Notes: generated from the letters alone by a model not told the origin. A DNA stretch of 55,953 nucleotides from a virus (IMGVR_UViG_3300009136_000007:1-55953), one strand, 5' to 3'. Shown: positions 1-44,912, counted from the stretch's first letter. Program-made: numbers and translations.

Positions 1-9
1 ATCAAAGAG

Positions 10-152
10 TGGCCGTAATAAGTTTGCAAGAAATATATAGAAAAGAAGAGCGAAGTGCAGAGTTTCTACGGAGTGCTATACACAAGGTGCATTACCTTGA
101 GTTTGTTGTAGGACGGAGTCTACTCTTCCGATTCTATTTCAAGATCAGGCCA
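10..152 (-). ncRNA. Candidate structured non-coding RNA (~143 nt) or structured 5' leader
   Basis: Minus strand folds into a closing helix (UGGCC/GGCCA; AUAGAA-GGAAGAGU/GCUCUUCU-UUCUAU) enclosing several hairpins (CAAGGU/ACCUUG, GUAG/CUGC, GAC/GUC). G-U pairs favour the minus strand. It begins just downstream of the class E motif at 166-197. Confidence 0.5.
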
Positions 153-165
153 ATATGTTTTATTA

Positions 166-197
166 GATTATCTTACGAGTGTAGTAGTTAGTCTGTA
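166..197 (-). promoter_or_regulatory. Putative early promoter, class E (variant copy)
   Basis: Minus strand TACAGAC-N4-TACTA-N9-GATAATC, same spacing as the copies at 470, 51217 and 55485. Confidence 0.55.
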
Positions 198-418
198 ATT
201 AATACAGATCTAACACTCACTGGAATACTACTTGAAGATGTATATGATTTATACTTTTCCCAGCAATTCATAGCATTTAGCTTTTCTTTCATAACTTCAT
301 ATGCTTCATCATGCGCATACTTCGCAGTCTTTCCATTCTTGAATGTTACTTCAATAATAGTGTTAGTGTTGATTAGAGATTTTCTGACTAAGAATCTTTT
401 TGATTGTAGAGTTTTCAT
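188..418 (-). CDS. Hypothetical early protein (76 aa)
   Basis: Clean ORF with AT-rich leader, directly downstream of the class E motif at 470-501. Confidence 0.75.
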   Translation of the reverse strand: MKTLQSKRFLVRKSLINTNTIIEVTFKNGKTAKYAHDEAYEVMKEKLNAMNCWEKYKSYTSSSSIPVSVRSVLITD

Positions 419-469
419 AAGTAAAATATTTAAAGTTATTATTAAGTTAGTATTAATTAGTTACATAGA

Positions 470-501
470 TATTATCAATGTGATATCGTAAAAAGTTAGT
501 A
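470..501 (-). promoter_or_regulatory. Putative early promoter, class E
   Basis: Minus strand TACTAAC-N4-TACGA-N9-GATAATA, intergenic, about 50 nt upstream of ORF 418. Confidence 0.7.
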
Positions 502-686
502 TAAAAAAAGATAAATAAAATGTTAAAAAGATATTGTGTAATGTATTGGAAATCAAGTATATATATGCAAAAATCTTAAAAAACAAGGGGGGCCCGTAAT
601 TTGAAAACGTAAAAGGTAAAACGCTGAAAACCAGGAAGTTAGGGGGCAACGCTATGGTTCCCTATATCTAATAAGTTTTAAAAACA

Positions 687-731
687 GTGACATAAGCCTG
701 TTAAGGTTATATAGTAAGGGGCTATTGTCAC
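687..731. repeat. Imperfect 45-bp palindrome (operator/origin-like), copy 1
   Basis: GTGACATAAGCC...GGCTATTGTCAC; homologous to the inverted copy at 54091-54134. Confidence 0.7.
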
Positions 732-767
732 ACTTTTAGTATTGTTAAACCGTAGTTGCAAGAACAA

Positions 768-796
768 GTAAATAACCGCTTTTTCGTGTAAGTATA
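768..796 (+). promoter_or_regulatory. Putative late promoter, class L
   Basis: GTAA-N16-GTAAGTATA at the head of the structural arm. Confidence 0.6.
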
Positions 797-822
797 TAAT
801 GTATAACACTAACATTAATACT

Positions 823-1419
823 ATGGCTTATAAAAAAGAAAGTCCGATATACATGTATGCTAATACAAATAGTATGGACGAAAAAAACAAAGTTGGACCT
901 AAGGTAGGTGGTTCAGTAAGTGGTAAAACATTTTCAAAGAAAAGAATACAGGAATACAAAGATAGAAACTGGGCTATGGATCACACGACCCATTCTGCAA
1001 TTGCAGCCCCAAAACCACCACAGGCAAAGAACAATATTACGCCGACACCATATTTTCCTGATAACAAAGCTAAAACCCCTGAAACTAAAGCTACTAAAGT
1101 CGAAGCTACTGAAGTCAAAGCTACTAAAGGTTTGGTAAAGCAAAAAGCTAAAGCTATTGAAACTGTAAAGTCAACAAGTATAACAGGAGTAGCTCAAAGA
1201 CCAAAAGCAGAGTCTATTAAGTTAGCGAGCCCAAAGCAAGGATTAGTAGGTAAAAAAGATACAATAGTCAAATCAAAGGCTCCAAAATCTACAAAACTTA
1301 CTAGATCTCAGAAATTAAGAGCTAAGGGAGAAGAGGCTTTAGCTAGTGGTAATAAATTAAAAGCTAGAAGAATCAGAAAAAGATACGATAGAGCAGTTGC
1401 TCGTGAAGCTAAAAAATAA
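823..1419 (+). CDS. Lys/Ala-rich basic protein (histone H1-like composition), probable virion core protein
   Basis: ORF 799-1419; ATG 823 preferred because it lies downstream of the class L motif. Contains SPIYMY and a 15-bp tandem repeat (KATKV/EATEV) at ~1081-1129. Confidence 0.7.
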   Translation: MAYKKESPIYMYANTNSMDEKNKVGPKVGGSVSGKTFSKKRIQEYKDRNWAMDHTTHSAIAAPKPPQAKNNITPTPYFPDNKAKTPETKATKVEATEVKATKGLVKQKAKAIETVKSTSITGVAQRPKAESIKLASPKQGLVGKKDTIVKSKAPKSTKLTRSQKLRAKGEEALASGNKLKARRIRKRYDRAVAREAKK

Positions 1420-1424
1420 TAACG

Positions 1425-1697
1425 ATGGGTAAACAGAAGTTATCACCTAAAGCTTCAGCAGCTAAAAAGAAACGCGACTTAGCAGCAGCTAATTCAGATG
1501 ACAGGAAAGCTAAAAGAGCTGACAGTCAGAAGAAGCGTAGAGAAGCTACTAAAAAGCATGGTGCAAACTGGCTGAAAGGTAAAGACTACGATCACAACAC
1601 CGGAAAATTTACATCGGCAGCTCACAACAGAGGCGGGACACAGTGTAGGAGTAAAAAAGATGGTACAAAAGCAGAAAAGAAACAATCAAGAAAATAA
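1425..1697 (+). CDS. Small basic protein with a minimal HNH-like motif
   Basis: KGKDYDH...HNRG motif; very Lys/Arg-rich. Confidence 0.6.
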   Translation: MGKQKLSPKASAAKKKRDLAAANSDDRKAKRADSQKKRREATKKHGANWLKGKDYDHNTGKFTSAAHNRGGTQCRSKKDGTKAEKKQSRK

Positions 1698-24512: not shown

Positions 24513-27500
24513 ATGGCTGAGATTAAAAATACTTTTCTAAAGTCTAAGATGAATAAAGACTTAGATGATAGACTTATACCTAATGGTGAGTATCGCGACG
24601 CACAGAATATATCTGTAGGCAAATCAGAGGACGCTGATGTTGGTGCTTTGGAAAACATGATAGGTAATGCTAGTGTAACTAGTATTTTACCTTACGACTC
24701 TAGCTGTGAAATTATAGGTTATTTTTCTGACGCTAGAAATAACAGGATAATAACATTTGTAACTAATTACACTGATCAAGATCCAGCTAGCCCAACGTAT
24801 GTTTCAGACTTTAACACGGCTAATCCTAGTCCACTTAAAGAGTGTCACATATGTGTTTACGACCAAAATAATCCTAATTACCAAAAAGTAGTGAGTGGTG
24901 AGTTTTTGAATTTTTCTACCACTAATAAAGTTTTAGGAGTTAGTCTAATAGAAAATTTGCTGTTTTTTACTGACGATAGAAATCAACCTAGAAAAATAAA
25001 CATTAATACAGCTATAGATAATACTAGTTATTACACTACGGAAGATACTATATCCGTAGCTAAGTATAATCCATATGAGCCTATAAGTTTACTTAAAAAG
25101 GTTGAACAAGAAACAACTGCGGCGTCTTCAGGTGTTGATTCTCTAACTCTGGATGATGCTAGTAATGTTGAAGTGGGAATGATTGTTGTAGCAAAAAACT
25201 TAGATCAAACAGCAGCTATTTCAGGTTCAGACTTTGTCACTGTTGGAGGTAAATCAGGTAACACGGTTACACTAGTCACTCAAGTCGGGGCTACAACCGT
25301 ACCAGTGCAGTATCTTGCTACAGTTAGTGATAATGCTAATGTTACTTTCTTAAAATCTACAATGACTAAAGAAGACCCCTCGACTGGTTGGCCAGGTGAT
25401 CCTGATCTGCTAGAAGAGGAGTATGTAAGGTTTTCTTATAGGTTTAAGTTTGATGACGGTGAGTATTCTATAATGGCACCGTTTACTCAAATAGCATATG
25501 TACCAAAACAAAAAGGTTATTTTCACGAAGGAGACGAAGAAACTGCTTTTAAGTCTACTATTTTAGACTTCATGGAGAATGAAATGAATAACATGGAGCT
25601 ATTGATACCTTTACCATCTAAAGGAGTGGACATAGAGTCTGAATATAAAATAACGTCTATAGATGTATTATACAAGGAATCAGATTCTTTAATTGTTAAA
25701 GTGTTAGAGAGTTTAACTATAGGATCTATACCTTCCGCAAGTTTACAAACTAGCACATACTCTTATCAATATCAATCAAGAAAACCATACAAAACACTAC
25801 CTCAATCTGAGATAATTAGAGTTTACGACAAGGTTCCTATTAGAGCTTTGTCTCAAGAAACTACCGGTAATAGAGTGATGTATGGTAACTTCTACGACAG
25901 ATATTCATCACCGGACTCTATAGATTACTACGTTGGGGCTTTTGCTAGAAACACTAACAACTTCGATTCTTGGGTTGAATACCCAAACCATAATATTAAA
26001 CAGAATAGAAACTACCAAGTAGGTTTTATTTTAGCTGATAAATTTGGTAGACAAACACCTGTTATATTATCACCAGTAGATTTGACTGGTTTAGATGCTG
26101 GTACATTGGAGTTTAAAGGTGGTTCAACTGTCTACAGACCCTACTATGACGGAAGTACTCAACCCAATATTCAACAATGGTTTGGAGATGCTATCCAGGT
26201 AGTTATTAGAAATAAAATATCAAGTGGATTAAACGATAAAAATACTTTAAGCGAAGCTGGTTTATATGCTATTCAATACCAAGATCCTACTTTTTCAGGA
26301 ATTGGTTTTTCTATAGATTCAGCATCATTTACTAATAGCTCTCAAACCCAGTTGCTGTTCACGTTAGACGCTACATACCCTAACAACGCTAGTGTGCCTA
26401 GAGTTGGAGATTACCTAAGAGGTGAATACAGAGACTATGTAAAAGTTACATCGATATCACTATTAGCTGGTAATTACACAGTAGATGCTGATGGAGCTAT
26501 AAACGACTCATACCTATATAAACAATACTTATTAAACGATTTAAAATTTGCTTATACTATAAACCAAATTGGATGGTATTCTTATAAGGTTGTCGTAAAG
26601 CAAACAGAACAAGAATACTACAATGTGTACTCTGCTGGTGCTATGAAAGGTCTTCCATATAATTACGATTCTTTGTCAGTGTCGCCAATTCTTGATGAAG
26701 ATACTTCTTTTATAACTTTACTAGGTGATAACATAAATAAAGTACCTAGAGACTTAACCGAGGTTGGGCCACAGGATAAATCTTTTAGAAGTTCTATAGG
26801 GTTATATGGAAGAGTTCAAAATCATAATGGAAATAATAGTCAGTTTTTTCCAGGTAGAACAACTTTTAACACTACATCAATAGAGGACTTGTTCACGTTG
26901 TTCGATATCAGTAATTTTACAAATAGTTTCAATAACCCTATACCTATAACAAACCCGCTTAATGCTTTTCATGGTTTCTTCAAGTCTGAATCGGATCCTT
27001 TCGTAGCCGAAATAAGTACCTCTAAAGACTCTAATTTACAGTTTGGTGCTAATAACAGTGTTTCAACACAAGCGGGTGGGGCTAACGTTAACGGTAATAG
27101 CGTAACAAATTCAATAACTTTACCAGTCGATACCGTTACTGGTGTCATAGAAATAGGTAGTGTTATAACTACTATTGCAGGTGTTCCGCAGACCGGAACA
27201 GTTGACTACGTTGTTGTTAATACTACAGGTGATTCTAGTCCTACCTTAACGCTTAATAGAGAGATAACATTATCAAACAACGATCCTCTAGTGTTTTCAT
27301 TAGATACATACAAAGATATTGCTACTTTAGCTGTTTTAGAAACACCACCCGTTGAATCCTTGTTGGATATATTTTGGGAAACTACAACTACTGGTTTAAT
27401 CTCTGATCTAAATGAAGATATATTAACTGGATCTGATGCTCCAGTAGGTTTAACTAGTTTAGGTTTTATTTATAAAGAAAATCAAAACCCAAACGGTACT

Positions 27501-29273
27501 GGTATTGGAACTGGTGATACTAATTCACCCTATATAACAGATGCTTTCTTCCCGCTTTCACCAGAAGGAGTTTCATTGCAAAATACACTTTTAAGTAGTT
27601 TTACTGTAACAGATAACAACTCACCAACTAACGACGTAAGCTCGTTCTTTGATGTTATACAAGAAACAACTCCTGGAGCCACGTTTGGTTCGTATAGGTT
27701 TAAGTTGAACTCTAATTCTTATAATTACTTTTCTAATACTTTCGCGACAAGTGGTAGTTATAATTTCTCCATAAGCGTTAAAGACATCAATGGTGATATA
27801 GTTGCTTTACCTTTTACAGGTTCTTTAACTAACATTGACCCATATATATCTCCATTTACGCCACCTATAATTGTGCCCGCTAGTTCACCATTACCTTTAA
27901 TAACGGTAAAGCGAGTAGACGGTTCTAGTGACAGCCTACGAATAGGAGACGTTGGTACTATCGTCAATGGTTCTTTTAGAATAGATGAAGCAGTAAACCA
28001 AGTTGGTGTATTCTTTACTAGTGTACCTCCAGTGCCTGTTAGTAACATACAAAATTCCGTAACTATAAATCACGAAACAGGACTTGCTTTTAGAGGTTAT
28101 GACTGGGCTGAAGGTTATTATGATTTGGATCTAGAAGTAAAAGATGCTTTAGTTTCTTTTTCGTCTGGACAAAATGGTATAGCTTCTCAACCTACAGAGT
28201 CTAGTGGAACAGCAACTAGTATAAACTATGAACAACCTGTTAGAGTTATACCTGGTGATTGCAACTTAGATACTGGTTGCCAGTTTGATCCTGCTAGTGG
28301 AACTAGAGAGCAATCATTCCCAGTCCAGGTGCCTGGAGGAAGGGTTTTTAAAGATTATGGCTGGAGATTTGGTTCTACAACCGGAGGCGTTCCTACTGGT
28401 TTTGTTACTGAAACAGGTAATGTTTCTACTCTTTCCAATGATGGTCTTAAACAAGGTACTGTTTTATTTGATTTAATGGTAGAGGCTGAAAAGAACACCG
28501 CTAATTTAACTGGTTATTTCAAATGGAGAATATGGTATAGATCTAGCAGTTCTAACGCTTGGTCTATAAGTAACGTTATAGATACCAATGGAGTTGATCT
28601 TAATACTAGCAACGGAGAAGTAGGTAATAACAACGGTTGGATTCAACCTGGCGCAAGTAATGATTTTGCATGTGTATCTAGTTCAGCAGGTACCGTTTCA
28701 CAAATACATATACCCGTAGCTTTAATCAAAAAAGGAGAATACTTTATACAAGTTAGAGGCTACAAAGATGTAAACTCTGGATCAGTTACCACTTGGATAA
28801 ACGCTACAGATGCTAACTACCCTACATGTGTACCTGTTAAAAGTACAAATATGATAAGTGGCACTGGTAGAGATGCTGATTGGTTCCAGTACAACTTGGC
28901 TACTACTGGAAATTCAGACACTTCTATATCGTGCGCTGCATCACTAACCGACACTGTTTACGCTAGAACTCCATACTCTCACGTAATGGGTCAGCTGTTT
29001 ACAACTCTTGATTTAACTATTGGTAAAACCGATATTGAAAATTTTGGTGAAAAATACTCTTACGAGTATGCTCCGGATGTTAGTAACACGCTTGGTGCTG
29101 ATATAGCTGCTCAATACGCTGCTGAGTTTATTAGTGATATAAACAATTCTAGCACAGGTAAAACTATACGCGGTGTCGTTAAAAACATCACAGGCATAGA
29201 TAGACTTCCTTGTAATACTTCAGGAGCATATCAAGATTTAGAAGTAAAAGTGTATTACAACACTAATTACTAG
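24513..29273 (+). CDS. Tail nozzle/stabilisation (crAss muzzle-like) protein, N-terminal part with a long beta-rich extension
   Basis: MNKDLDDRL..GEYRDAQN, LLFFTDDRNQPRKIN, RFSYRFKFDDGEYS and RNYQVG..DKFGR motifs. Confidence 0.75.
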   Translation: MAEIKNTFLKSKMNKDLDDRLIPNGEYRDAQNISVGKSEDADVGALENMIGNASVTSILPYDSSCEIIGYFSDARNNRIITFVTNYTDQDPASPTYVSDFNTANPSPLKECHICVYDQNNPNYQKVVSGEFLNFSTTNKVLGVSLIENLLFFTDDRNQPRKININTAIDNTSYYTTEDTISVAKYNPYEPISLLKKVEQETTAASSGVDSLTLDDASNVEVGMIVVAKNLDQTAAISGSDFVTVGGKSGNTVTLVTQVGATTVPVQYLATVSDNANVTFLKSTMTKEDPSTGWPGDPDLLEEEYVRFSYRFKFDDGEYSIMAPFTQIAYVPKQKGYFHEGDEETAFKSTILDFMENEMNNMELLIPLPSKGVDIESEYKITSIDVLYKESDSLIVKVLESLTIGSIPSASLQTSTYSYQYQSRKPYKTLPQSEIIRVYDKVPIRALSQETTGNRVMYGNFYDRYSSPDSIDYYVGAFARNTNNFDSWVEYPNHNIKQNRNYQVGFILADKFGRQTPVILSPVDLTGLDAGTLEFKGGSTVYRPYYDGSTQPNIQQWFGDAIQVVIRNKISSGLNDKNTLSEAGLYAIQYQDPTFSGIGFSIDSASFTNSSQTQLLFTLDATYPNNASVPRVGDYLRGEYRDYVKVTSISLLAGNYTVDADGAINDSYLYKQYLLNDLKFAYTINQIGWYSYKVVVKQTEQEYYNVYSAGAMKGLPYNYDSLSVSPILDEDTSFITLLGDNINKVPRDLTEVGPQDKSFRSSIGLYGRVQNHNGNNSQFFPGRTTFNTTSIEDLFTLFDISNFTNSFNNPIPITNPLNAFHGFFKSESDPFVAEISTSKDSNLQFGANNSVSTQAGGANVNGNSVTNSITLPVDTVTGVIEIGSVITTIAGVPQTGTVDYVVVNTTGDSSPTLTLNREITLSNNDPLVFSLDTYKDIATLAVLETPPVESLLDIFWETTTTGLISDLNEDILTGSDAPVGLTSLGFIYKENQNPNGTGIGTGDTNSPYITDAFFPLSPEGVSLQNTLLSSFTVTDNNSPTNDVSSFFDVIQETTPGATFGSYRFKLNSNSYNYFSNTFATSGSYNFSISVKDINGDIVALPFTGSLTNIDPYISPFTPPIIVPASSPLPLITVKRVDGSSDSLRIGDVGTIVNGSFRIDEAVNQVGVFFTSVPPVPVSNIQNSVTINHETGLAFRGYDWAEGYYDLDLEVKDALVSFSSGQNGIASQPTESSGTATSINYEQPVRVIPGDCNLDTGCQFDPASGTREQSFPVQVPGGRVFKDYGWRFGSTTGGVPTGFVTETGNVSTLSNDGLKQGTVLFDLMVEAEKNTANLTGYFKWRIWYRSSSSNAWSISNVIDTNGVDLNTSNGEVGNNNGWIQPGASNDFACVSSSAGTVSQIHIPVALIKKGEYFIQVRGYKDVNSGSVTTWINATDANYPTCVPVKSTNMISGTGRDADWFQYNLATTGNSDTSISCAASLTDTVYARTPYSHVMGQLFTTLDLTIGKTDIENFGEKYSYEYAPDVSNTLGADIAAQYAAEFISDINNSSTGKTIRGVVKNITGIDRLPCNTSGAYQDLEVKVYYNTNY

Positions 29274-33056: not shown

Positions 33057-36000
33057 ATGTTTGAATTAGAAGGTGAACAATACTCATTAGAGCAAGTAAC
33101 TTCAGCTGCAGATCAATCTAATATGCCTCTTGAAGATTATTTAAAAAAATATAATATTAAAGAGCTAGAGGAAACTGTAGAAACGGTGGAAAAGCCAAAA
33201 GATGTTGTGGAAAAGGATGCAACTGTAACATCGATAGAACCGGAGCAAGCATCCGAGAGTACGGAATTAGAGCAGGTAGATACTTCTTTGGTATCAGAAG
33301 ATCCTGAACCAGTTGTAAGAAGAGGTAGAGCTCAAGTAAGGCAAAAAGAACTCGCTAATAGAAAACAAGCAATAGAGCAAAAAAAGCGTGATGACTTAAT
33401 CGCAGCCGGTATAAAAGCTGAACAATACGAGGAAGCTAAAAAGAACGTAGATGAAACGTTAACTGATGCTGGCTCTAGTATATGGAGCTACTCCCCTGAG
33501 AATATTTCAAATTTATATTCTAAAACAACTGGAGAAGCTCTTGATTACCAAGCTATAGAAAGCATATCTCCAATAGGCTCCTCAATGTCTTATACAGGTG
33601 TTTTTAAGCCTTATGGTAGCTTTTTAACTGGTGGGTTTAGTTACTCTGACTTTGCTGATAACGAAAAAATAAAAGGCATATCTATATCTGAGTTGCAAAA
33701 GGCAGATCAAGCTAACGCTGCTTCTAGTGCTTTAGAAAGTATTTTTGAAGAACATGGAGACAAGTCTGATGAATTTGTTTTAAGTCAAGGACAAGTTATT
33801 TTAAAAGGAAAAGACAAAAAACTTCAAGAACTATACTCTTCTTTAAGAACTTCAAAACCAGAGAACAAGCAACAAATAATAAATGAAATAAAAAAAGTGA
33901 GAGAAGACAACTCGCAAGAGTTGTTTGATATAAATACTGGTAATTTAACTAAGTATGATAAACTGCCTGAAGAGTCTAAAAAACAGTATGACAATATAGT
34001 TGAAAAAGCAGAAGAAAAAGCTTCAACAACAGAAATAGATCAACTAAACAAAGAGCTAACAAATTCTTACTCAAATTTAGTAGGTATATCAAAAAGAATA
34101 TCTAGTTTTATAGATGAAAACGGAGAAGATGAGATAACTAAAAAATCACAAACGACGCCACAGTATTTAGTTAGCGCCGTTAAAGATTTTTTTGGATCTG
34201 AGGAAACTACATATGGAGACTTAAGCAGGGTTCAAGAGATATCTAGAACAGGTGTTCTACCAGAAAACGTAAGTAAAATAAGTGGCGAACATCCATTAGC
34301 TAAAGCGTATAATAAAGCCTTAGAAGAATACGCTATATTAAACAGAGCTGTACAAACAAACACTGATCCGCTTTCAGAAAAACAAGAAGGTTTTTGGGAG
34401 TCAGCTGGAGATGTTTTACTAGAAAAAATAGATATGACTGGTGGTGTTGCGGCGCCTAAGGTAAAAGCCACCGCTAATCAAATATTTGTTGAATCAGTTG
34501 AAAAGGCTGGTTTAGGTAGAATAAATCAAGAAGAGGTTGACGAAGCAGTTTCTCAGAACTGGAAAAGCGTAGTTGGTGGTGGAGCTGTAGATTTAACACT
34601 TTTTGTGGGTGAGGTAGCGTTATTCAAAGGCGGTACAGCTAACAAGATAAGTAAAGGTTTTAAGTACATAGAAAAAACATTTAAAGCTAGTGAAGCTGCA
34701 AAGTCTAGTAAGTTGCTTAGAAAAGCTGGGGACTTTGTTATAAAAGGTATGGATGAAGCTGCTGTTTTTACTGGTCTTGAATCAACGAAAACAAGTCTTG
34801 GCTTGTCCCAACAATCAACTAGAGAACAAGAATGGGCTACGGCTACTTTTGGTTTCGCTTTGGGTGGAGGTAACTCTTTAGGTTCAAGCATTCTTAGAGC
34901 CTTACCAGCTAAAACAATATTTTCACCTATAACAGCTCAATTATCTAAATCAGATCTAGCTAGAAGCGCCGGTAATAGGTTTGTCAACGCTAATGCCGGA
35001 GCGTTTTCTTTTGAGTTTGCTAGAGCTGCAACCGCTGCTTTAGGCGAAGACGAAGAAGGTTATTACGATAGAAACCCAGAAGAGTTTATTAAAGAGTATC
35101 TGGCTGAAGTAGCTAAAATGAGCTTGCTTGGAGCTAAATCTATATTTCACAAGAATGGTGTATATAGAGCCGCCCAAAGAGACATGCGTTTGTTAAACTT
35201 AAACCCTACGTATGTAAATAGAGCTGCTAAAAGAACCGGTATAGATTCTTCATCAATTAAAAAACCTGGTGAAGACACTATAGATCAAATAGACGCTGCT
35301 AGAGCTGACAAAATGTCTGATATAGATGCTAAGCTGAAAACACAGCAAATAACAGGAGAGCAAGCTAAAAAAGAGATAGAAGACGTTAATAAAGACTACA
35401 ATATATTAGAAGCGGAGGTCGAACTAAATTTAGCTAAAAAAAGGTTTGATGCTGAAAGTAAGAGCGCTTTAAAACCAACTGATGAAAGTGTAAGAATACT
35501 TATTCAGAAAATGAAAAAAGGTGATAAATTCAACGATAAAGATAACAACGCTTTAGTTAATACCCCTCTACCTATAATCTACGATAGAATGGGAATAGAC
35601 TCATCTAGTAAAAGTTTAGAAAATAGATGGAATAGAGAGTTTGCTATTGAAGACGTAATGAATAACAATACAGACTTCAAAGCGCCTTATGAGTCAAAAG
35701 AAAGAGCAGATTCTTATAAATTTCTCGATGAAATTTTTGAAATTGGAGGTCAAATACAGCTACTTAAAAAGACGAAAGACAGAAACGAAGCACAAGAAAA
35801 AGAGCTGCAACAGCTTGAAAAAGATTACAAAGTATATGAGCCAGGTGGTTATAAATATGACAAGCTTCAGGACAAGCTAGATCAACTATACTTAAAACAA
35901 AGGTTAGCAAGTAAAGCTCAAGCTGAAGACGTTTTAGGTGCTACGCAGGAAGGTGAATCAGTTTCTGTTAGATCTGCTGAGGATTTCCAGAAGAAGTATG

Positions 36001-39000
36001 AATCTATAAATAAAGACGGGCAAGATGTTAGATCTAGTGATGGTTTTTACGACGCTAAAAATAAAATTTTCTATGTAAACGAACAAGTTGTCGCAGCTAC
36101 TAGAAACACAACCGTTGAAAAACACGAGGTTGGTCATTTTGTATTAAGAGACTCTTTGAAAGATAAAACTGGTAAAGTCACAGATAAAGGTATAAAGGTT
36201 ATAGACGAAGTCTTAAGTGAACTAACTCCTAAGCAAAGAGAAACTGTACAAAAACGTATTGACGATTTTTATAGATATGACGAAAAAGAGATTAACTCTC
36301 TTAGATCTAAACTAAAATCAGCACTTACCGAAGGAAACGCTGAAGAAGCAGAAAGTATAGTTGAAGAAATTGAAAAACTAGAATCTAAACCAAAGAAGGA
36401 AAAAAATAAAAAAGATTACTACGAAGAGTATCTTACTGTGCTATCGGACGCTATAAACGAAAAACAAATAGTATTTAAAGAAAACGTAGGTAACGCTTTT
36501 GAAAAGTTTGTTCCTTTTCTTAGAAAAAGGATGCCAGAACTAGAACTAAATGCTGATACTGGTAAAAATCTATTCGAGCTAATTAAAAGTTATTCTAAAG
36601 GCGAAAAACCTGGTATAGAAGCAGCTAAACAAATGTCTATAGCGGCAGAAGGTAAAGACACTAGCGGTCAAAAAGTTAGTAAATCTACATCTGTAGATTC
36701 TATAGAAAGAAAGTTAGAAGAGCTAGAAGATAAGTATTTTGATCAAGAAATAGATGAGTACCAGTTTGAGCAACAAAGAGATAAACTAGAAAAAGATCTT
36801 GTTAAAGCTGAAGAAGCTACTAAACTAGCTAAAGAAGTTAAGGCTGAGCTAGTAGAAACAGAAACTAAACCAGTAGAGAAAGCTGAAAATGTAGAAAAAG
36901 TAGTAAAAGAGGCTACCACAAAAGTTTTTGAAGCTAAAGAAGTTTCTGACAAAAATAAACAAATAGCAAGAACTAACGATGACATCGTTCAAGAGATGGC
37001 TGATTTGGGAGCTAATAGAATATCAGAAATAAAAGACCCTAAAGCTAAAAAAGCTATAGTTGACAAGTTAGGTGAAAACAATATTGGAGCTGTCACTGAG
37101 CTAGCTAAAAAAGCAGCTGCAACCAGTAGAGATCTACCTATAGACGATAACTTAAAAGTTAACTACGAAGAATTCTTTTTAGGTTTTAGTGAAGAGTTGT
37201 CTGCGCTTATAAACTCCTACAAAGCTAACGTTGACGGCAAGAAAGTTCCTTTTGGAGCTTATATGAACCAAAACCTTAGACTTAGATACGGTAGTATATT
37301 AAACAGGTCTCTAAAAGGTAAGCTTAAAGGTTCTGAAAGCTTGTCTAGCGATAAGAACATAAAAAAAGAGGTTGGATCATTTGTTGAAGAGTCTTCAAGT
37401 GAATCCACTGGTAGAGACGAAGGTAGAGTACTAGAGCAGATAGACGTCAGAAAGTTTGGACCAGCTAAAGATAAAGTTAACGAGATATCTGACATAGTCA
37501 CAGTTGAAGAAGGAAAGAGACCTACATACAAAGAGTTAACTGAGGAGTTTATAGAACCAGTGTCTGTAGAGTTATTCGACGTGCCTGGTAGAAAAATACA
37601 AGGTAAAGCTACTTTAACTGACACTGAAGCTAAGTCTTTGCAAAGATTATTTGTTAGTCCTGACAACGTTAGAAAACTTATAAAAACAATGCCTCCTTAC
37701 AACGTAGCAGGTAGTGAAACTACCATTGGCGAACGAGCAGAGAGTATTGATGTTTCTAAAGACACTAAAGGTAAGTCTATAGGTTTATCCAACAAGTTTA
37801 TAAAACAGTTCTATCAACCAGTCACTAGAGCTATACCTGGTGTCTCTAGCCCGAAAGGTAGAAGTTTAGGTGCTACGAGTCAAGGGCAAGTATACGAGCT
37901 TAAACCAGAGTTTAGAGGTAGAGTATCTAACGAAGCTGTAAAGCAAATTCAGAACAGCGTAGGTGTAACAGAAGCTGGTGTACCTAACGAAAAAATATCC
38001 GCAGCTAACAGAACCAAGTACGGCACCACTTTAACAGGTTTTGCTAAGACTTATATAGCTAATGTCATAAATGTGACAGGTAGATCTAAACAAACTAGCA
38101 AGCAAGAACAAGCAGATACTGGCGCTGGTAAAGCTAGTATTATGTTTAGTAAAACTGCTGAATCAAATGAAGAGTTTTCTAAAAAGTTTAAGTCTAAAGA
38201 AGTTAAGAAACTAGTCGAAGGTAAGTTTGAAAATCTTATAGCAAAAGCAAAGCTACCAGATACAGTAGCGCAGGAGATTAAAAACTTGATAAAAAGTGAG
38301 GATTTAAAACCTATAGAAATGTTTCAGGTTGTTTCAGATATAGCTTCACGGGACTTAAGTTTTACTGCTAAAAGAAGTTTTCAAGAAGGATTAATAACTG
38401 ATTTAATTAAAGCTGAAGGAGGAGACTTTGGATCTGTTCTAGTTCAAAACTTAGGACAAGTTAGAAGAATATTTAAAAAAGAATACGAAGCTATAGGCTT
38501 TGGTACAGAAGTATCACAATTAAAAAAGTCCATAAAAGGTGATAATAAAGAGGTTAGAGACGCTAAAGTTCTTGACTGGTTATTATCGGTATCTAGATCT
38601 GTTAGATCAAGTAGTAATAAGAGTTTATTATACGTTTCTACCAATAAAAAATTATTCGACGCAGAATTGAAAGGTATTCTTGGAAAAGATTCTGACTTTG
38701 AAGCGGTTCAAAAAAAGTTACCTTCTGGAAAAGTAGTATCTTTTATAAAATATAAAGGAAAAGGATTAGAGGGTTTTCAAGATATTACTGAATTAAAATC
38801 TAAAGGTTTTAGAGTTTATGGCGAAAAAGTTTCTGAGCAAGCTGATAAAGCTAGAGAACTTGCTTTAAACAAAATAGATTCACTTAAAGAAAGACTTAAT
38901 AAAAAAGAGATAACTAAGGGTCAGTATGATTCTATGGTTGACTCTTACTTGAGTTTAGTAAGTTTGGATCAAAAAGGTTTAATAAGAAAGATGTCTAAGC

Positions 39001-41378
39001 CAAATGGTGAAATAATAGACGGCTACAGAGCTACTGAACTATACTTGGAGCACAAGATGTCTGCTCAAGAAATAAAAGAGCTATTATCGTCTTACGCTGA
39101 AGGTAAAGTAGAGAAACAAGAAGTACTAGATATTTTAGAGAAAGAAGCATTAGTGAATATAATGCCAAAAGTTTTAGAGAAAAAAATACCTAATTTCGCA
39201 GCAGAAAGAGCAAAAAACCCTAACTACAAAAACTCAGAAGGTTACGAGAGTAAAGAGTATTTAGATGCTTTAGAGCAATATAAACCACTTATCAAAGACA
39301 TGGACGGTAACAGTGTTATGTTTAGTAAGACTCAAAAAGAAGAAAAAGCTAAAAGCTTAGATAGAGCATTTAATGATATTATAGAAAATAAAACAGGTAT
39401 ACCTAGTAAAAAAAGATTTGGTATAGTTGAAGCTACAACTAAAGGCGCTGGTCAAGGTAGACTTAACTTCATTATACCGCCTTCGCAAGAGGACTTTGTC
39501 GGTTTATTATACACCACTCTTGGTAAAAAAGAAGTTGGTGATAGTCAAATGCAATGGTACAAGGACAATTTAATAACTCCTTACGCTAAAGCCATGAACA
39601 AGCTTAGTAAAGCTCGGGTATACATGCTTAACAACTACAAGACGCTTAAAAATCAACTCAATGTAGTTCCTAAAGATCTAGCTAAAAAAGTAGAGGGAAC
39701 TGACTACACTAAAGAAATGGCTGTTAGAGTTTATATATGGAATAAACAAAAAATGGAAGTTCCAGGTATAAGCAAGTCAGACGTTAAAAAATTAAGCAAC
39801 TTCGTTGTAGAAAATGAAAACTTGCAAACTTTTGGTGATCAATTAATAAATCTACAATTAGGCGATGGTTATGTTAAACCAAAAGAAGGTTGGGCAGCTG
39901 GAACTATAACTACGGATATACTTGAAGGTTTAAACACCACAAAAAGATCTAAATATTTAAAAAATTGGCAAGAAAATGCAGACGCTATATTTAGTGAAGA
40001 TAATATGAATAAGTTGCAAGCTGCTTACGGTTTAAACTACGTAAAAGCTATGAAAAACATGCTAGGTAGAATGAAGTCTGGTAGAAACAGAAACTTTCCA
40101 GGTGATAGCGCTACTGGTCGATTCACTGATTGGGTTACAGGTAGTGTTGGTGTTACGATGTTTCTTAACACTAGATCAGCTGTGCTACAAACAATATCTG
40201 CCATAAATTTTATTAATCTTCAAGACAACAATATTTTAGCCGCTGGTAAAGCTTTTGCTAACCAAAAACAGTACTGGAAAGATTTTAGTACGTTAATGAA
40301 TTCAGACTTCTTAAAAGAAAGACGTGGAGGATTACGTATTAATGTCAGCGAGGCAGATATTGCTGATATGGCTAAGAAAGATGGCGCCAAGGGAGCTATA
40401 AGTAAATTACTGCAATTAGGTTTTGCACCTACTCAAATAGCTGATAGTTTCGCTATTGCTTCTGGTGGAGCAAGTTTCTATAGAAACAGGATTAATACTT
40501 ATAAAAAACAAGGTTTATCAGACAAGGAAGCTGAGAAAAAAGCTTTTGAAGATTTTAGAGAAACAGCTGAAGAATCGCAACAGTCTTCTAGAGCCGACAG
40601 AATATCTATGCAGCAAGCTAGTCCAGTAGGAAGATTTGTGTTAGCTTTTGCAAACACCCCAGCTCAATATGCTAGAATAATTAAAAAAGCTGCTAGTGAT
40701 CTTAAAAACGGCCGAGGAGATGCTAAAACTAATATATCTAAGATAATCTATTACGGAGCAGCGCAAAACATACTTTTTAACGCTTTGCAGCAAGCTTTAT
40801 TCGCTACAGCTCTTAGTGATGAAGAGCCTGGAGATGAAGAAAAGGAAAAAAAGTATTTAGGTATTGCTAATGGAATGATGGATTCTTTACTTCGAGGTAC
40901 TGGTATTGGCGGTTCTGTAGTTTCAGTTGGTAAAAACGCTGTTATTAAACTACTTAAAGAGTTGAAGAAAGATAGACCTAAAATGCAAAATGTTGCTTCT
41001 GAATTATTGAAGATATCACCTCCAGTTTCAGGTAAGTATTCAAGACTTGTTCAAGCTGGTAAATCATATGATTGGAATAAGGATGAAATGAGAGAAAAAG
41101 GCTTAAGCTTAGATAACCCCGCTTATTTAGCTAGCGGTAAAGTTATTTCCGCTTTAACAAACATACCTTTAGATAGAGCTATTAAAAAAGCTAACAACGT
41201 TGTTCAAGCTACTACTCAGGATTTAGAAGCTTGGGAACGTATAGCTTTACTAGGTGGTTGGTCTGATTGGGAGCTAGGTATTAAAAAAGATAAAAAAGAT
41301 AAATCTAAATCAAATAAAACTGTAAGAAAATCAGGAGTAATTAGAAAAAAGGTAATAAGAAAAAAAGTAGTAAAGTAA
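33057..41378 (+). CDS. Giant internal virion/ejection polyvalent protein (2773 aa) with zincin peptidase and sigma70 region-2-like domains
   Basis: GFYD...HEVGH...EE zincin; ENNIGAVTELAKK...VPFGAYMNQNLR sigma-like segment; KVSKS, MFSKT and MFSKT linkers; helical, membrane-prone C-terminal region. Confidence 0.8.
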   Translation: MFELEGEQYSLEQVTSAADQSNMPLEDYLKKYNIKELEETVETVEKPKDVVEKDATVTSIEPEQASESTELEQVDTSLVSEDPEPVVRRGRAQVRQKELANRKQAIEQKKRDDLIAAGIKAEQYEEAKKNVDETLTDAGSSIWSYSPENISNLYSKTTGEALDYQAIESISPIGSSMSYTGVFKPYGSFLTGGFSYSDFADNEKIKGISISELQKADQANAASSALESIFEEHGDKSDEFVLSQGQVILKGKDKKLQELYSSLRTSKPENKQQIINEIKKVREDNSQELFDINTGNLTKYDKLPEESKKQYDNIVEKAEEKASTTEIDQLNKELTNSYSNLVGISKRISSFIDENGEDEITKKSQTTPQYLVSAVKDFFGSEETTYGDLSRVQEISRTGVLPENVSKISGEHPLAKAYNKALEEYAILNRAVQTNTDPLSEKQEGFWESAGDVLLEKIDMTGGVAAPKVKATANQIFVESVEKAGLGRINQEEVDEAVSQNWKSVVGGGAVDLTLFVGEVALFKGGTANKISKGFKYIEKTFKASEAAKSSKLLRKAGDFVIKGMDEAAVFTGLESTKTSLGLSQQSTREQEWATATFGFALGGGNSLGSSILRALPAKTIFSPITAQLSKSDLARSAGNRFVNANAGAFSFEFARAATAALGEDEEGYYDRNPEEFIKEYLAEVAKMSLLGAKSIFHKNGVYRAAQRDMRLLNLNPTYVNRAAKRTGIDSSSIKKPGEDTIDQIDAARADKMSDIDAKLKTQQITGEQAKKEIEDVNKDYNILEAEVELNLAKKRFDAESKSALKPTDESVRILIQKMKKGDKFNDKDNNALVNTPLPIIYDRMGIDSSSKSLENRWNREFAIEDVMNNNTDFKAPYESKERADSYKFLDEIFEIGGQIQLLKKTKDRNEAQEKELQQLEKDYKVYEPGGYKYDKLQDKLDQLYLKQRLASKAQAEDVLGATQEGESVSVRSAEDFQKKYESINKDGQDVRSSDGFYDAKNKIFYVNEQVVAATRNTTVEKHEVGHFVLRDSLKDKTGKVTDKGIKVIDEVLSELTPKQRETVQKRIDDFYRYDEKEINSLRSKLKSALTEGNAEEAESIVEEIEKLESKPKKEKNKKDYYEEYLTVLSDAINEKQIVFKENVGNAFEKFVPFLRKRMPELELNADTGKNLFELIKSYSKGEKPGIEAAKQMSIAAEGKDTSGQKVSKSTSVDSIERKLEELEDKYFDQEIDEYQFEQQRDKLEKDLVKAEEATKLAKEVKAELVETETKPVEKAENVEKVVKEATTKVFEAKEVSDKNKQIARTNDDIVQEMADLGANRISEIKDPKAKKAIVDKLGENNIGAVTELAKKAAATSRDLPIDDNLKVNYEEFFLGFSEELSALINSYKANVDGKKVPFGAYMNQNLRLRYGSILNRSLKGKLKGSESLSSDKNIKKEVGSFVEESSSESTGRDEGRVLEQIDVRKFGPAKDKVNEISDIVTVEEGKRPTYKELTEEFIEPVSVELFDVPGRKIQGKATLTDTEAKSLQRLFVSPDNVRKLIKTMPPYNVAGSETTIGERAESIDVSKDTKGKSIGLSNKFIKQFYQPVTRAIPGVSSPKGRSLGATSQGQVYELKPEFRGRVSNEAVKQIQNSVGVTEAGVPNEKISAANRTKYGTTLTGFAKTYIANVINVTGRSKQTSKQEQADTGAGKASIMFSKTAESNEEFSKKFKSKEVKKLVEGKFENLIAKAKLPDTVAQEIKNLIKSEDLKPIEMFQVVSDIASRDLSFTAKRSFQEGLITDLIKAEGGDFGSVLVQNLGQVRRIFKKEYEAIGFGTEVSQLKKSIKGDNKEVRDAKVLDWLLSVSRSVRSSSNKSLLYVSTNKKLFDAELKGILGKDSDFEAVQKKLPSGKVVSFIKYKGKGLEGFQDITELKSKGFRVYGEKVSEQADKARELALNKIDSLKERLNKKEITKGQYDSMVDSYLSLVSLDQKGLIRKMSKPNGEIIDGYRATELYLEHKMSAQEIKELLSSYAEGKVEKQEVLDILEKEALVNIMPKVLEKKIPNFAAERAKNPNYKNSEGYESKEYLDALEQYKPLIKDMDGNSVMFSKTQKEEKAKSLDRAFNDIIENKTGIPSKKRFGIVEATTKGAGQGRLNFIIPPSQEDFVGLLYTTLGKKEVGDSQMQWYKDNLITPYAKAMNKLSKARVYMLNNYKTLKNQLNVVPKDLAKKVEGTDYTKEMAVRVYIWNKQKMEVPGISKSDVKKLSNFVVENENLQTFGDQLINLQLGDGYVKPKEGWAAGTITTDILEGLNTTKRSKYLKNWQENADAIFSEDNMNKLQAAYGLNYVKAMKNMLGRMKSGRNRNFPGDSATGRFTDWVTGSVGVTMFLNTRSAVLQTISAINFINLQDNNILAAGKAFANQKQYWKDFSTLMNSDFLKERRGGLRINVSEADIADMAKKDGAKGAISKLLQLGFAPTQIADSFAIASGGASFYRNRINTYKKQGLSDKEAEKKAFEDFRETAEESQQSSRADRISMQQASPVGRFVLAFANTPAQYARIIKKAASDLKNGRGDAKTNISKIIYYGAAQNILFNALQQALFATALSDEEPGDEEKEKKYLGIANGMMDSLLRGTGIGGSVVSVGKNAVIKLLKELKKDRPKMQNVASELLKISPPVSGKYSRLVQAGKSYDWNKDEMREKGLSLDNPAYLASGKVISALTNIPLDRAIKKANNVVQATTQDLEAWERIALLGGWSDWELGIKKDKKDKSKSNKTVRKSGVIRKKVIRKKVVK

Positions 41379-41840: not shown

Positions 41841-42157
41841 TGGGTGCAGAAATTTCAGAAAAATCAAAAGTTTCTTTAGATATAAAAGCGGTTATTGGGG
41901 CTGTAGCTGGTATTATTTCAGTAGCAAGCGTATGGTTTACATTAACAGCGGAAATAGCACAACTAAAGCTAGACATAGTTAGAATGCAAGACGCTGTAAA
42001 GCTAAATGAAGAGTTTAGGATTAAATGGCCTAGAGGTGAAATGGGTGCATTACCTGATGACGCTAAACAAGATTTAAAAATAATATACTTACAAGATGAT
42101 GTCAATCAGCTAAAGTATATCGTAAAAGCACTCGAAATAGATAACGCTAAAAAATAA
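41840..42157 (+). CDS. Single-TM coiled-coil protein (lysis accessory, spanin/holin-like)
   Basis: N-terminal transmembrane helix then coiled coil; coupled to the endolysin. Confidence 0.55.
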   Translation: MGAEISEKSKVSLDIKAVIGAVAGIISVASVWFTLTAEIAQLKLDIVRMQDAVKLNEEFRIKWPRGEMGALPDDAKQDLKIIYLQDDVNQLKYIVKALEIDNAKK

Positions 42158-42161
42158 AAAT

Positions 42162-42317
42162 ATGAAAACACCATTATACGCAAAGATTAGTGGAGCTTGT
42201 AAAACAGCTGCAAAGAAGAAGTTTAAAGTTTGGCCAAGTGCTTACGCTTCCGGTTGGGGAGTAAGATGTACTAAAGCTGGAGGTCCAAGTAAGTTTGGTA
42301 GCAAAAAGAAAAAGTAA
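42162..42317 (+). CDS. Small basic protein (51 aa, not in ORF track; DUF5872-like N-terminal part)
   Basis: MKTPLYAKISGACKTAAKKKFKVWPSAYASGWGVRCTKAGG...; TAATG coupling to the next ORF. Confidence 0.7.
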   Translation: MKTPLYAKISGACKTAAKKKFKVWPSAYASGWGVRCTKAGGPSKFGSKKKK

Positions 42318-42583
42318 TGATTACACCTTTATTTAAGAAAAGCAAAGTAAAAGGAGGAGGTACCAAGAAGGTATGCTTACCTGCAGCTAAAGTCAGATCA
42401 ATGAGTAAAGCTGAAAAAGAGAAAGTTATTAGATCTAAGCAGACAGCTGCTAAATCAGGTAAGTATAAAAGATCTAGTAAATCAAACGTAAAAGGCGCTC
42501 GAAAGAAAGGAGCTACGCTACGTGACTGGTTTGAAAAAGAAAACTGGGTAAACGTAAGAACAGGTGAAGCCTGTGGAAAATAA
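42317..42583 (+). CDS. Small basic protein (DUF5872-like)
   Basis: KVCLPAAK and LRDWFEKENWV...G..CG motifs. Confidence 0.7.
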   Translation: MITPLFKKSKVKGGGTKKVCLPAAKVRSMSKAEKEKVIRSKQTAAKSGKYKRSSKSNVKGARKKGATLRDWFEKENWVNVRTGEACGK

Positions 42584-42634
42584 AAGGAACAAACATTAAT
42601 AGGCGTACCATACCTAAAAGTTCCTGTAACCAAG

Positions 42635-44465: not shown

Positions 44466-44468
44466 ATA

Positions 44469-44895: not shown

Positions 44896-44912
44896 TTTTT
44901 ATAATTTATTTG

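What the first reader, a model, noticed from the sequence alone, without database searches (positions are those of the whole stretch)
10..152. Promoter-driven multibranch ncRNA candidate at the start of the early strand
Seen: a comparatively GC-rich stretch with no credible ORF. The minus-strand RNA pairs its ends (UGGCC-UGAU/AUUA-C-GGCCA) and forms a 14-bp helix (AUAGAA.GGAAGAGU/GCUCUUCU.UUCUAU). This closes a junction with 3-4 hairpins and an unpaired CUACAACAAACU tract. The predicted class E start (~158) is a few nt before the fold begins. It is not tRNA-shaped. Inference: a phage small RNA, for example an RNAP/6S-like or anti-defence decoy, or a structured leader.
Basis: partly seen in the sequence, partly recalled or inferred. 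Interest (0 to 1): 0.7.

Follow-up and report, generated by a model that had tools for sequence, protein, structure and literature searches.

The report
Conserved small RNA motif in marine phages
Only the first third of the proposed 143-base RNA is real: a roughly 45-base two-hairpin RNA motif of unknown function, sitting behind an early promoter, that about a hundred uncultured phages of marine Flavobacteria share almost letter for letter.

Summary
The 143-nt multibranch fold is not conserved. Its 14-bp helix and closing stem borrow their 3' strands from the upstream half of the next early promoter, which the contig end cuts.

What is conserved is window 151..108 on the minus strand, weakly on to about 98. 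It consists of a hairpin P1 with strong covariation, then an almost invariant 17-nt block and a short tail. A covariance model finds it once in the window (70.9 bits) and on about 105 IMG/VR contigs.

It was absent from three cultured relatives and from 10 near-complete related phage genomes. The only other full copy sits on a contig filed in a Shapirobacteria MAG. G-U pairs outnumber A-C mismatches 242 to 38, which puts the structure on the early-gene strand. A promoter-like hexamer lies 7-9 nt upstream in 22 of 96 contexts.

There is no Rfam match, no proof of expression and no consistent terminator. My best reading is an accessory, promoter-equipped early RNA cassette whose product binds a conserved partner. 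The function is unknown.

The parts
153..198 (-). Early-class (E) promoter-like site ahead of the element. The upstream element matches the family consensus. The GATAAT hexamer lies at 172..167, followed by a 15-nt spacer to the motif. The site overlaps the stop codon of ORF76 (190..188).
   Evidence: Sequence. Consensus of 542 distinct promoter-like contexts. In L002, whose ORF76 is 99% identical, the homologous site is a full-consensus promoter that drives a small ORF instead.
105..152 (-). Conserved RNA motif, as matched by the covariance model. The strongly conserved part is 151..108.
   Evidence: cmsearch 70.9 bits, E 2.6e-20, the only match in the window. 108 matches in 100 related sources. 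Contigs of other phages in four sequencing runs match only about 108..151/153 and run on unlike the window on both sides (table 7).
128..148 (-). Hairpin P1. The lower stem pairs 148-144 with 132-128 and includes an invariant U-G pair. The upper stem and loop are variable.
   Evidence: On 90 distinct sequences, pair 8-40 is AU 44, GC 22, GU 17, CG 6, and pair 9-38 is UA 42, CG 33, GC 3, AU 2. None of 500 shuffles reaches the observed covariation score. An independent MAFFT alignment gives the same result. Two contigs have a UUCG loop and others have GAAA loops.
114..130 (-). Nearly invariant 17-nt block (CGGAAGAGUAGACUCCG). It could form a 3-bp hairpin GAG/CUC with a 4-nt loop. Only the third loop base varies, G or U.
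   Evidence: With the six stem letters left free, a scan found 108 GAG/CUC and 1 GAG/CCC among genuine copies, so there is no covariation. Rare single changes occur in second copies found by the model.
108..113 (-). Tail YCCUAC, conserved at 0.9-1.8 bits per position. Weaker conservation follows, to about window 98.
   Evidence: Information content from 92 contexts. The last three letters can pair with GUA of the block: 94% of cells are compatible, with 5 one-sided wobble changes and no clear double changes.
83..99 (-). Local hairpin CAAGGU-AAUGC-ACCUUG between the motif and the next promoter. It occurs only in the close clade and has no U-run.
   Evidence: Across 92 contexts, downstream hairpins are no better than shuffles (-5.76 against -5.34 kcal/mol, p 0.35).
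72..82 (-). GTATAGCA box, an optional upstream element of E promoters.
   Evidence: One exact match in the window. The box lies within 120 nt upstream of 133 of 542 E-like promoters, with 90 occurrences 30-39 nt upstream. It lies within about 60 nt of the motif in 74 of 92 contexts.
1..29 (-). Upstream half of the next E promoter (TTGCAAACTTATTACGG, 9 nt, GAT), cut by the contig end.
   Evidence: It matches the consensus. In L003 and L005 the same sequence continues into the full hexamer and motif. A paralogue of ORF76 follows in the same contigs, fetched also as L045 and L079.
188..418 (-). ORF76, a 76-aa early protein of unknown fold. Members of its family flank the motif in most contigs.
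   Evidence: The family is present in 46 of 53 loci, often on both sides of the motif. The AlphaFold model has pLDDT 91.2. There is no Pfam or PHROG match.
460..476 (-). E promoter core of ORF76 (GATAATATCTATGTAAC).
   Evidence: One mismatch to the motif taken from relatives. It lies 41 nt before the ATG.

Best explanation
Window 151..108 (minus strand), weakly on to about 98, is a small structured RNA module. It has a covarying hairpin (P1), then an almost invariant 17-nt block and a short conserved tail. It lies at or near the 5' end of a short early transcription unit driven by its own E-class promoter (172..167).

It is an accessory, promoter-equipped cassette, in effect an 'RNA moron', in the early region of a subset of uncultured podophages of Flavobacteriia. 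It is present in one or two copies and is always co-oriented with the early genes. Closely related genomes lack it or carry something else in its place.

Shown here: conservation, P1 covariation, strand, genomic setting, accessory distribution, and absence from Rfam and from all but one record of the bacterial and archaeal genome collection.

Inferred: that it is transcribed, and that the invariant single-stranded and loop letters are read by one highly conserved partner. I think the most likely mode is a trans-acting RNA ligand or decoy for a host factor or defence protein early in infection (about 0.4 of my belief). A cis-acting effect on the transcribing RNA polymerase comes next.
For: A 24-nt pattern from the motif occurs once each on 52 IMG/VR contigs. 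A looser 17-nt pattern gives 114 stretches, of which 8 are chance hits by the model's score. That leaves 106 stretches on 105 contigs, because L043 and L114 lie on one contig. L040 and L087 were judged by pattern only.

P1 covaries. Six of its 9 pairs show double-sided changes, 93% of cells are paired, 0 of 500 shuffles reach the observed score, and slid controls give 14-51% paired (MAFFT-based).

The structure is strand-specific, with 242 G-U cells against 38 A-C cells. All downstream neighbouring gene families lie on the same strand as the motif.

A promoter-like hexamer lies within 30 nt upstream in 31 of 96 contexts, 7-9 nt from the motif in 22 of them. A second promoter class (TGTCAC type) lies within 90 nt in 34 of 96.

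The motif is accessory. L002 has a 99%-identical ORF76 and a 96%-identical upstream region, but a small ORF behind the same promoter in place of the motif. Ten of 10 related genomes that are 92-100% complete have no match. The same method found the motif in G001 and G002. Eight sources carry two copies.

Neighbouring proteins have diverged to 28-30% identity, yet the 17-nt block is unchanged. This argues for a conserved partner.

The 20-nt core was sought in 185,579 bacterial and archaeal genomes. It turned up only on one contig filed in a Shapirobacteria MAG, which carries the full motif, and in one chance hit.
Against: No transcript was shown. The two RNA libraries that hold the region are kept as contigs and may contain DNA.

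The 48 nt is no more stable than shuffles (z -0.18).

The second hairpin shows no covariation, so it may not be a helix at all.

The sequences were harvested with patterns that fix most of the invariant block, so its invariance is partly built in. Independent variation is known only from the variant copies seen.

The alignment A2 is fitted to the model.

There is no consistent terminator after the motif, which is unusual for a stand-alone sRNA gene.

In 27 of 96 contexts my simple rules recognise no promoter, and in some the motif directly follows what looks like coding sequence.

No protein family within 3 kb co-occurs with the motif throughout, so no partner is in sight.

A single-stranded DNA signal would show the same strand bias.
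Confidence: 0.55

Rival explanations
1. Cis-acting nascent-RNA element that modifies the transcribing host RNA polymerase, in the manner of HK022 put. The two stem-loops would fold right behind the promoter, bind RNA polymerase, and make it resistant to pausing or termination across the downstream early genes.
For: It has two adjacent stem-loops. In about two thirds of contexts it lies within 0-90 nt of a promoter-like site. It sits at the head of a long co-oriented array of small early genes. Some genomes carry two copies. It has no terminator of its own. Extreme sequence conservation would fit a conserved host enzyme as the partner. For put, the passages read in PMC9378689 describe RNAs of about 70 nt with two stem-loops, lying just downstream of early promoters and acting without a protein factor.
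Against: In the window's clade a further promoter follows within about 110 nt, so downstream genes do not depend on read-through. Terminator-like sites downstream are not clearly enriched: 13 against 6.4 +/- 3.1 in window 42000-55953, of which 7 lie on the early strand, and 3 against 2.8 in L048. The motif is absent from 10 of 10 near-complete relatives with the same early-region layout. It is replaced by an ORF in L002. The conserved unit is 45-58 nt rather than about 70 nt.
Confidence: 0.2
2. DNA-level signal rather than RNA. One form would be a hairpin on one strand plus a specific sequence, read by a replication or priming protein or by a regulator, inside an origin-like region with repeated boxes.
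For: A contiguous 17-nt invariant block without covariation looks like a protein-binding site. GTATAGCA boxes, often in tandem, lie within about 60 nt in 74 of 92 contexts. The motif lies in the AT-rich switch region between divergent gene blocks. Contig ends cluster nearby.
Against: G-U pairs (242 cells), among them one invariant pair, are much weaker as G-T pairs in DNA. Two contigs have UUCG loops, which are typical of RNA. In 22 contexts the spacing to a promoter hexamer is fixed. Absence from 10 near-complete relatives argues against an essential origin. The boxes belong to E promoters generally, in 133 of 542 contexts. Contig breaks are expected at repeated promoters.
Confidence: 0.12
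3. Small self-cleaving ribozyme or RNA-processing signal. A variable hairpin next to an invariant core resembles the layout of small nucleolytic ribozymes.
For: The motif has a variable, covarying stem beside strictly conserved unpaired letters. It has no terminator, which fits an end made by cleavage. It is found in phages.
Against: No known ribozyme model matches at E <= 10 within 105-152. The only ribozyme row is a chance-level hammerhead hit elsewhere, at 654-731. Only one helix is supported. The test for a pseudoknot with downstream sequence was negative. Nothing here bears on cleavage.
Confidence: 0.08
4. One reading: a 143-nt multibranch ncRNA (6S-like or decoy) spanning 152..10.
For: The fold exists in this sequence and beats most shuffles (z -2.32, 4 of 200 as good).
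Against: Only 2 of 9 motif-bearing loci in the ORF76 set keep the long helix, and both are near-identical relatives. The 3' strands lie in the next promoter's upstream region, one of them inside its conserved upstream element. There is no conservation beyond about 16 nt after the invariant block. Loose ends of foreign contigs fall at 107/108 and 151/153.
Confidence: 0.03

Closest known systems
HK022 put RNAs (putL, putR). Passages read in PMC9378689; a mention in PMC9974457.
   Same: Phage-encoded. Two stem-loops. Placed just behind early promoters. One or two copies per genome. No dedicated protein evident nearby.
   Different: No sequence relationship could be tested. The conserved unit here is about 45-58 nt, not about 70. 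The hosts are Flavobacteriia, not enterobacteria. It is accessory, absent from close relatives. In the window's clade another promoter follows at once. No antitermination was shown.
Abundant early intergenic RNAs of Cellulophaga crAss-like phage phi14:2. Passages read in bioRxiv 10.1101/2020.03.07.982082.
   Same: Non-coding transcripts from the early end of a phage of marine Flavobacteriia. Function unknown.
   Different: Those are described as long non-coding RNAs in a crAss-like phage with a virion RNA polymerase. The window's phage belongs to a different group, with a P22-like portal and its own sigma factor, and its giant proteins lack a DFDxD motif. I did not search phi14:2 with the model. 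The paper's supplementary tables were not available to me.
6S RNA
   Same: A small RNA that could act on the transcription machinery.
   Different: No Rfam 6S match. The conserved unit is about a quarter of the length of a 6S RNA (length recalled, not from a call). It has no long helix with a central bubble.
Phage RNA decoys such as RNA anti-CRISPRs, which are solitary repeat mimics, and pseudo-antitoxin repeats (recalled, not from a call)
   Same: Small, promoter-equipped, accessory RNA cassettes in early regions that are swapped between related phages.
   Different: No CRISPR-repeat model matches the motif. Its 20-nt core is absent from 185,579 bacterial and archaeal genomes, apart from one contig filed in a Shapirobacteria MAG. 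It is not a tandem repeat.

Membership tests
Any Rfam 15 family | Score at or above the family's gathering threshold | tested here: not met
   cmscan of window 1-1500 at E <= 10 gave 7 weak rows. The only one touching the motif is 'pan', at 124-217 (-), with 16.7 bits against a gathering score of 36.2 and E 9.5.
tRNA / tmRNA | Cloverleaf or tmRNA architecture detected by ARAGORN | tested here: not met
   0 genes in the whole window.
6S RNA | Match to a 6S covariance model, meaning a long irregular helix with a central bubble | tested here: not met
   No 6S row at E <= 10. The conserved unit is 45-58 nt with two short hairpins.
HK022 put-type antiterminator RNA | Two stem-loops directly downstream of an early promoter | tested here: met
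   P1 is supported by covariation. The second hairpin is possible but invariant. A promoter-like site lies within 0-90 nt in about two thirds of 96 contexts.
HK022 put-type antiterminator RNA | Acts in cis on RNA polymerase to suppress pausing and termination | not testable with these tools
   This needs transcription assays. Counts of downstream terminator-like sites are uninformative.
HK022 put-type antiterminator RNA | Sequence or structure homology to putL/putR | not tested
CRISPR-repeat mimic (RNA anti-CRISPR) | Close likeness to a CRISPR repeat of the host | tested here: not met
   No CRISPR-DR model hits 105-152. The exact 20-nt core pattern was found in 2 of 185,579 species' genomes. 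One hit is on a contig filed in a Shapirobacteria MAG and carries the full motif. The other is a chance hit of 19.4 bits. Looser likeness was not tested.
Type III antitoxin-like RNA (tandem repeats) | Tandem array of repeat units next to a toxin gene | tested here: not met
   There is one copy in the window. Where a source holds two copies, they lie 450-1800 nt apart.

The most novel reading that the evidence does not exclude
The motif is a new class of functional phage RNA in Bacteroidota. It could be a protein-independent RNA that reprogrammes the host RNA polymerase, a put-like mechanism outside enterobacterial phages. It could instead be a trans-acting decoy that disables a conserved host factor or defence. 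In both cases its invariant 17-nt block would be the contact surface. It would be spread as a self-contained promoter-plus-RNA cassette among marine phages.
Probability: 0.25. Interest if true: 0.8.

Novelty: new variant of a known kind. Interest (0 to 1): 0.58.

Why it matters
Phages of marine Flavobacteriia are abundant, and their early regions are almost entirely unannotated. The motif is short, easy to synthesise and very strongly conserved. It has clear covariation in one helix, is not in Rfam, and is carried as a swappable early cassette. That makes it a tractable entry point into how these phages take over a host that lacks the classical Hfq and CsrA small-RNA systems (recalled, not tested here).

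If its partner is RNA polymerase, it would extend protein-free RNA control of transcription beyond HK022. If its partner is a defence system, it would add an RNA anti-defence element. Even if the function stays unknown, the covariance model and the promoter consensus found along the way improve annotation of this phage group.

Tried and rejected
Structural ideas tested and dropped:
- Pseudoknot between the P1 loop and the semi-conserved downstream stretch. Matched partners give -2.44 kcal/mol and permuted partners -2.60 +/- 0.16. The median rank of the true partner is 0.55. Rejected.
- Long-range helix between GCUAUAC upstream and GUAUAGC downstream. The pairing orientation occurs in only 2 of 92 contexts. 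Rejected.
- Loop-tail pairing GUAG/CUAC. It is compatible in 94% of cells but shows no convincing double changes, and 18 cells are unpaired at the fourth pair. Left open.
- Terminator after the motif. No better than shuffles.

Searches for relatives, partners and expression that gave nothing:
- Host copy or mimicry. None found.
- Cultured relatives. There was no DNA match for window 1-800. There was no ORF76 homologue. The model found nothing in MW202828, Maribacter phage Panino or Flavobacterium phage elemoF. A blastn hit inside a gene of a Flavobacterium myophage has E 0.09 and is chance-level.
- Virion RNA polymerase as the source of an odd promoter. The 2773-aa and 1586-aa proteins lack a DFDxD motif, and the 2773-aa protein has no PDB relative by sequence.
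- ORF76 as an RNA-binding partner. The model is confident, but no fold match appeared: Foldseek gave nothing at E <= 0.001 and the best VIA Z was 3.5.
- Co-occurring protein family. None is general.
- Expression. Read laying gave contigs only, and depth cannot show transcription.
- Earlier notes of this scan. None.
- Literature searches found no description of this motif.

Slips: mis-read strands and was redone. One search had a faulty regular expression and was redone. One search used a mistyped pattern that cost one scan; its 7 hits are meaningless, and it was redone. The script crashed after printing its statistics. An exact 35-nt search found nothing.

Not used: the metagenome-contig scan, complex prediction, and the protein searches.

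Full report
SETTING. The window is an entire IMG/VR virus record: 55,953 bases, classed as linear, and estimated 87% complete. It encodes a P22-like portal, a GroEL-type chaperonin, both ribonucleotide reductase subunits, a Toprim-DnaB primase-helicase and a sigma factor. Its portal finds 87 phage records at below 60% identity, all but one from phages of Flavobacteriaceae: Flavobacterium 68, Cellulophaga 15, Tenacibaculum 2, Maribacter 1. The best match is 50.7%. Genes run rightward from about 800 to 42,000 and leftward from 55,953 down to about 42,300. The finding lies at the extreme left end, on the minus strand, just downstream of a 76-aa ORF (188..418). The leftward early block therefore continues across the contig ends.

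THE OBSERVATION. The MFE is -33 kcal/mol against shuffles of -24.7 +/- 3.6, giving z -2.32, and 4 of 200 shuffles fold as well. The stretch has 41.3% G+C, against 31.6% for the first kilobase. No frame is credible or conserved. ARAGORN finds nothing in the window. Rfam at E <= 10 gives only chance-level rows.

COMPARATIVE TEST. The neighbouring ORF76 has 35 relatives in IMG/VR. It is 89-96% identical even where ORF76 is 69-80% identical, and in some contigs it sits upstream of that gene rather than downstream. The 3' strand of the 14-bp helix is kept only in the two nearest relatives.

A 24-nt pattern from the conserved part occurs once on each of 52 contigs. A 17-nt pattern gives 114 stretches. 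Eight of these are chance hits with model scores below 20 bits. That leaves 106 stretches on 105 contigs, because L043 and L114 lie on one contig. L040 and L087 were judged by pattern only.

The covariance model R1 was built from 45 distinct sequences. It finds exactly one copy in the window, at 152..105, with 70.9 bits. It finds 108 copies in 100 sources, eight of which hold two copies. Sequence conservation ends about 16 nt after the invariant block, and none is seen upstream.

An independent check comes from four sequencing runs. Contigs of other phages match the window only over about 108..151/153 and diverge on both sides (table 7).

ANATOMY OF THE MOTIF. Reading 5' to 3' on the minus strand:
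- R-G-C-C-U-G opens hairpin P1. On 90 distinct sequences, its lower pairs show AU 44 / GC 22 / GU 17 / CG 6 and UA 42 / CG 33 / GC 3 / AU 2, next to an invariant U-G pair.
- Six of the nine P1 pairs have double-sided changes and 93% of cells are paired. No shuffle of 500 reaches the observed covariation score, and slid controls pair 14-51% of cells. The MAFFT-based count agrees.
- The top of P1 is free to vary. Most copies have UGAAAUA-type loops. Others have GAAA or UUCG tetraloops, or an entirely different stem.
- Next come two A's and then the block CGGAAGAGUA(G/U)ACUCCG. It could form GAG/CUC around a 4-nt loop.
- When those six letters were left free in a scan, 108 of 109 genuine copies still had GAG/CUC. 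So there is no covariation and the letters themselves are constrained.
- Rare single changes occur in second copies or variants.
- The tail YCCUAC is conserved at 0.9-1.8 bits per position. Its last letters could pair with GUA of the block, which is compatible but unproven.
- A pseudoknot with downstream sequence and a long-range helix between flanking boxes were both tested and rejected.

G-U cells outnumber A-C cells 242 to 38, so the structure belongs to the strand of the early genes. Thermodynamically, the 48 nt is unremarkable (z -0.18).

WHAT THE REST OF THE 143 NT IS. Related contigs contain 542 distinct sites of one long promoter-like consensus. It has a TACAAACT-type element, then AATACGA, then about 9 nt, then GATAATATAaaTG. 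An optional GTATAGCA box lies within 120 nt upstream in 133 of the 542 sites, with 90 occurrences 30-39 nt upstream.

The window carries one such site before ORF76 (476..460). A slightly degenerate one lies before the motif (198..153, hexamer at 172..167). A third lies at 29..1 and is cut by the contig end after GAT. In L003 and L005 this third site continues into the full motif, and a paralogue of ORF76 follows.

The long helix uses the T-rich stretch upstream of it. So the region is a string of short promoter-led cassettes: ORF76, the RNA motif, then an ORF76 paralogue.

IS IT TRANSCRIBED, AND FROM WHERE? This is inferred, not shown. Of 96 distinct upstream contexts, 31 have the E-type hexamer within 30 nt, and in 22 of those it lies 7-9 nt from the motif. 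That spacing would put the start at the motif's first G's. A second promoter class lies within 90 nt in 34 contexts. This is the TGTCAC type, which also forms the divergent pair at window 681-745. My rules recognise nothing in 27 contexts, though several of these carry variant sites by eye. The RNA libraries that hold the region are stored as contigs and cannot show transcription. There is no consistent hairpin or U-run after the motif.

DISTRIBUTION. The motif is absent from three cultured or named relatives. It is also absent from 10 of 10 related genomes that are 92-100% complete and carry ORF76-family genes. The same procedure found it in two other records.

L002 shares a 99%-identical ORF76 and a 96%-identical upstream region with the window. 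Behind the homologous promoter it has a small ORF instead of the motif.

The 20-nt core is absent from 185,579 bacterial and archaeal genomes except for two hits. One lies on a 21-kb contig filed in a Shapirobacteria MAG, which carries the full motif (72.3 bits) and is probably mis-binned phage DNA. The other is a chance hit. The motif is therefore phage-specific, accessory and exchangeable, yet under very strong sequence constraint while the neighbouring proteins drift to 28-30% identity.

MECHANISM. The data support a folded RNA whose unpaired and loop letters are read by something that hardly changes across hosts. I rank four readings:
(1) A trans-acting ligand or decoy made early in infection. 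This best fits the accessory, cassette-like distribution and the duplications.
(2) A put-like cis-acting modifier of RNA polymerase. This fits the position behind promoters, the two stem-loops and the missing terminator (put features from passages read in PMC9378689). It fits poorly with the next promoter following at once, with the motif's absence from close relatives, and with uninformative terminator counts.
(3) A DNA-level signal.
(4) A small ribozyme or processing site.
None can be settled without experiments.

NEIGHBOUR GENE. The ORF76 family flanks the motif in 46 of 53 loci, often on both sides. It folds confidently (pLDDT 91.2). It has no Pfam or PHROG match and no solved-structure match. 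It also occurs without the motif. No other family within 3 kb tracks the motif.

COMPARISON AND NOVELTY. Four full-text searches found no paper describing it. The nearest analogues are HK022 put, by layout, and the unexplained early non-coding RNAs of Cellulophaga phage phi14:2, by host group (passages read; the supplements were not available). I file it as a new RNA motif of a known general kind: a phage early-region structured RNA of unknown function.

CAVEATS. The collection was made with patterns that fix most of the invariant block. The alignment A2 is fitted to the model. Related sequences inflate shuffle tests. Expression is unproven.

Noticed in passing
window 460-476 (-), 153-198 (-), 1-29 (-); 542 sites in loci L002-L158: A long, well-conserved early promoter-like consensus: a TACAAACT-type element, AATACGA, about 9 nt, then GATAATATAaaTG. 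ACGR sits at the expected place in 435 of 542 sites. The region is a string of short cassettes, each with its own copy.
   Followed up: partly
window 72-82 (-); loci generally: An 8-nt box, GTATAGCA, occurs 578 times in 1.24 Mb of related loci. It is often in tandem at 10-11-nt spacing and in either orientation, mostly 30-39 nt upstream of E promoters. It is probably a regulator's binding site.
   Followed up: partly
window 681-745: A divergent pair of a second promoter-like motif (TGTCAC type), one on each strand, around an inverted repeat. This is the most widely conserved non-coding piece of the switch region, with blastn coverage reaching 91 hits across the related loci. The phage encodes its own sigma factor at 52592-53353 (-).
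   Followed up: no
window 572-676 (-): A non-coding leader of about 100 nt after the leftward TGTCAC promoter, with G+C-rich runs. blastn coverage is about 20 hits across related loci. The fold gives z -1.38, which is unremarkable.
   Followed up: partly
window 188-418 (-) and paralogues in loci: The ORF76 family (about 75-120 aa) has invariant F9, R12, Y34, H36, D37, K55, P66 and R70. The AlphaFold model is confident, with pLDDT 91. There is no family or fold match, and paralogues usually sit on both sides of the RNA motif.
   Followed up: partly
L002 1877-2160: In a contig whose ORF76 is 99% identical, the RNA cassette is replaced by a small ORF behind the homologous promoter. This is cassette swapping between near-identical backbones.
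   Followed up: partly
52 contigs: Contig ends cluster near the motif: 17 of 52 lie within 5% of contig length, where 5.2 are expected, on either side of the motif. The likely cause is assembly breaks at the repeated promoters and variable cassettes. The window itself is cut inside a promoter.
   Followed up: partly
L043/L114 (one 129,537-base contig); L090: The 129.5-kb contig holds two motif copies 62.9 kb apart, scoring 72 and 46 bits. It looks like two related genomes joined end to end. A 21-kb contig filed in a Candidatus Shapirobacteria MAG carries the full motif and is probably mis-binned phage DNA.
   Followed up: no
window 33057-41378 (+) and 24513-29273 (+): The 2773-aa ORF has no PDB sequence relative and no PHROG match. 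The 1586-aa ORF matches only a virion structural PHROG. Neither has a DFDxD motif.
   Followed up: no
window 654-731 (+): A weak hammerhead HH9 row: 17 bits against a gathering score of 52, E 0.61. It overlaps the promoter inverted repeat and I treat it as chance.
   Followed up: no
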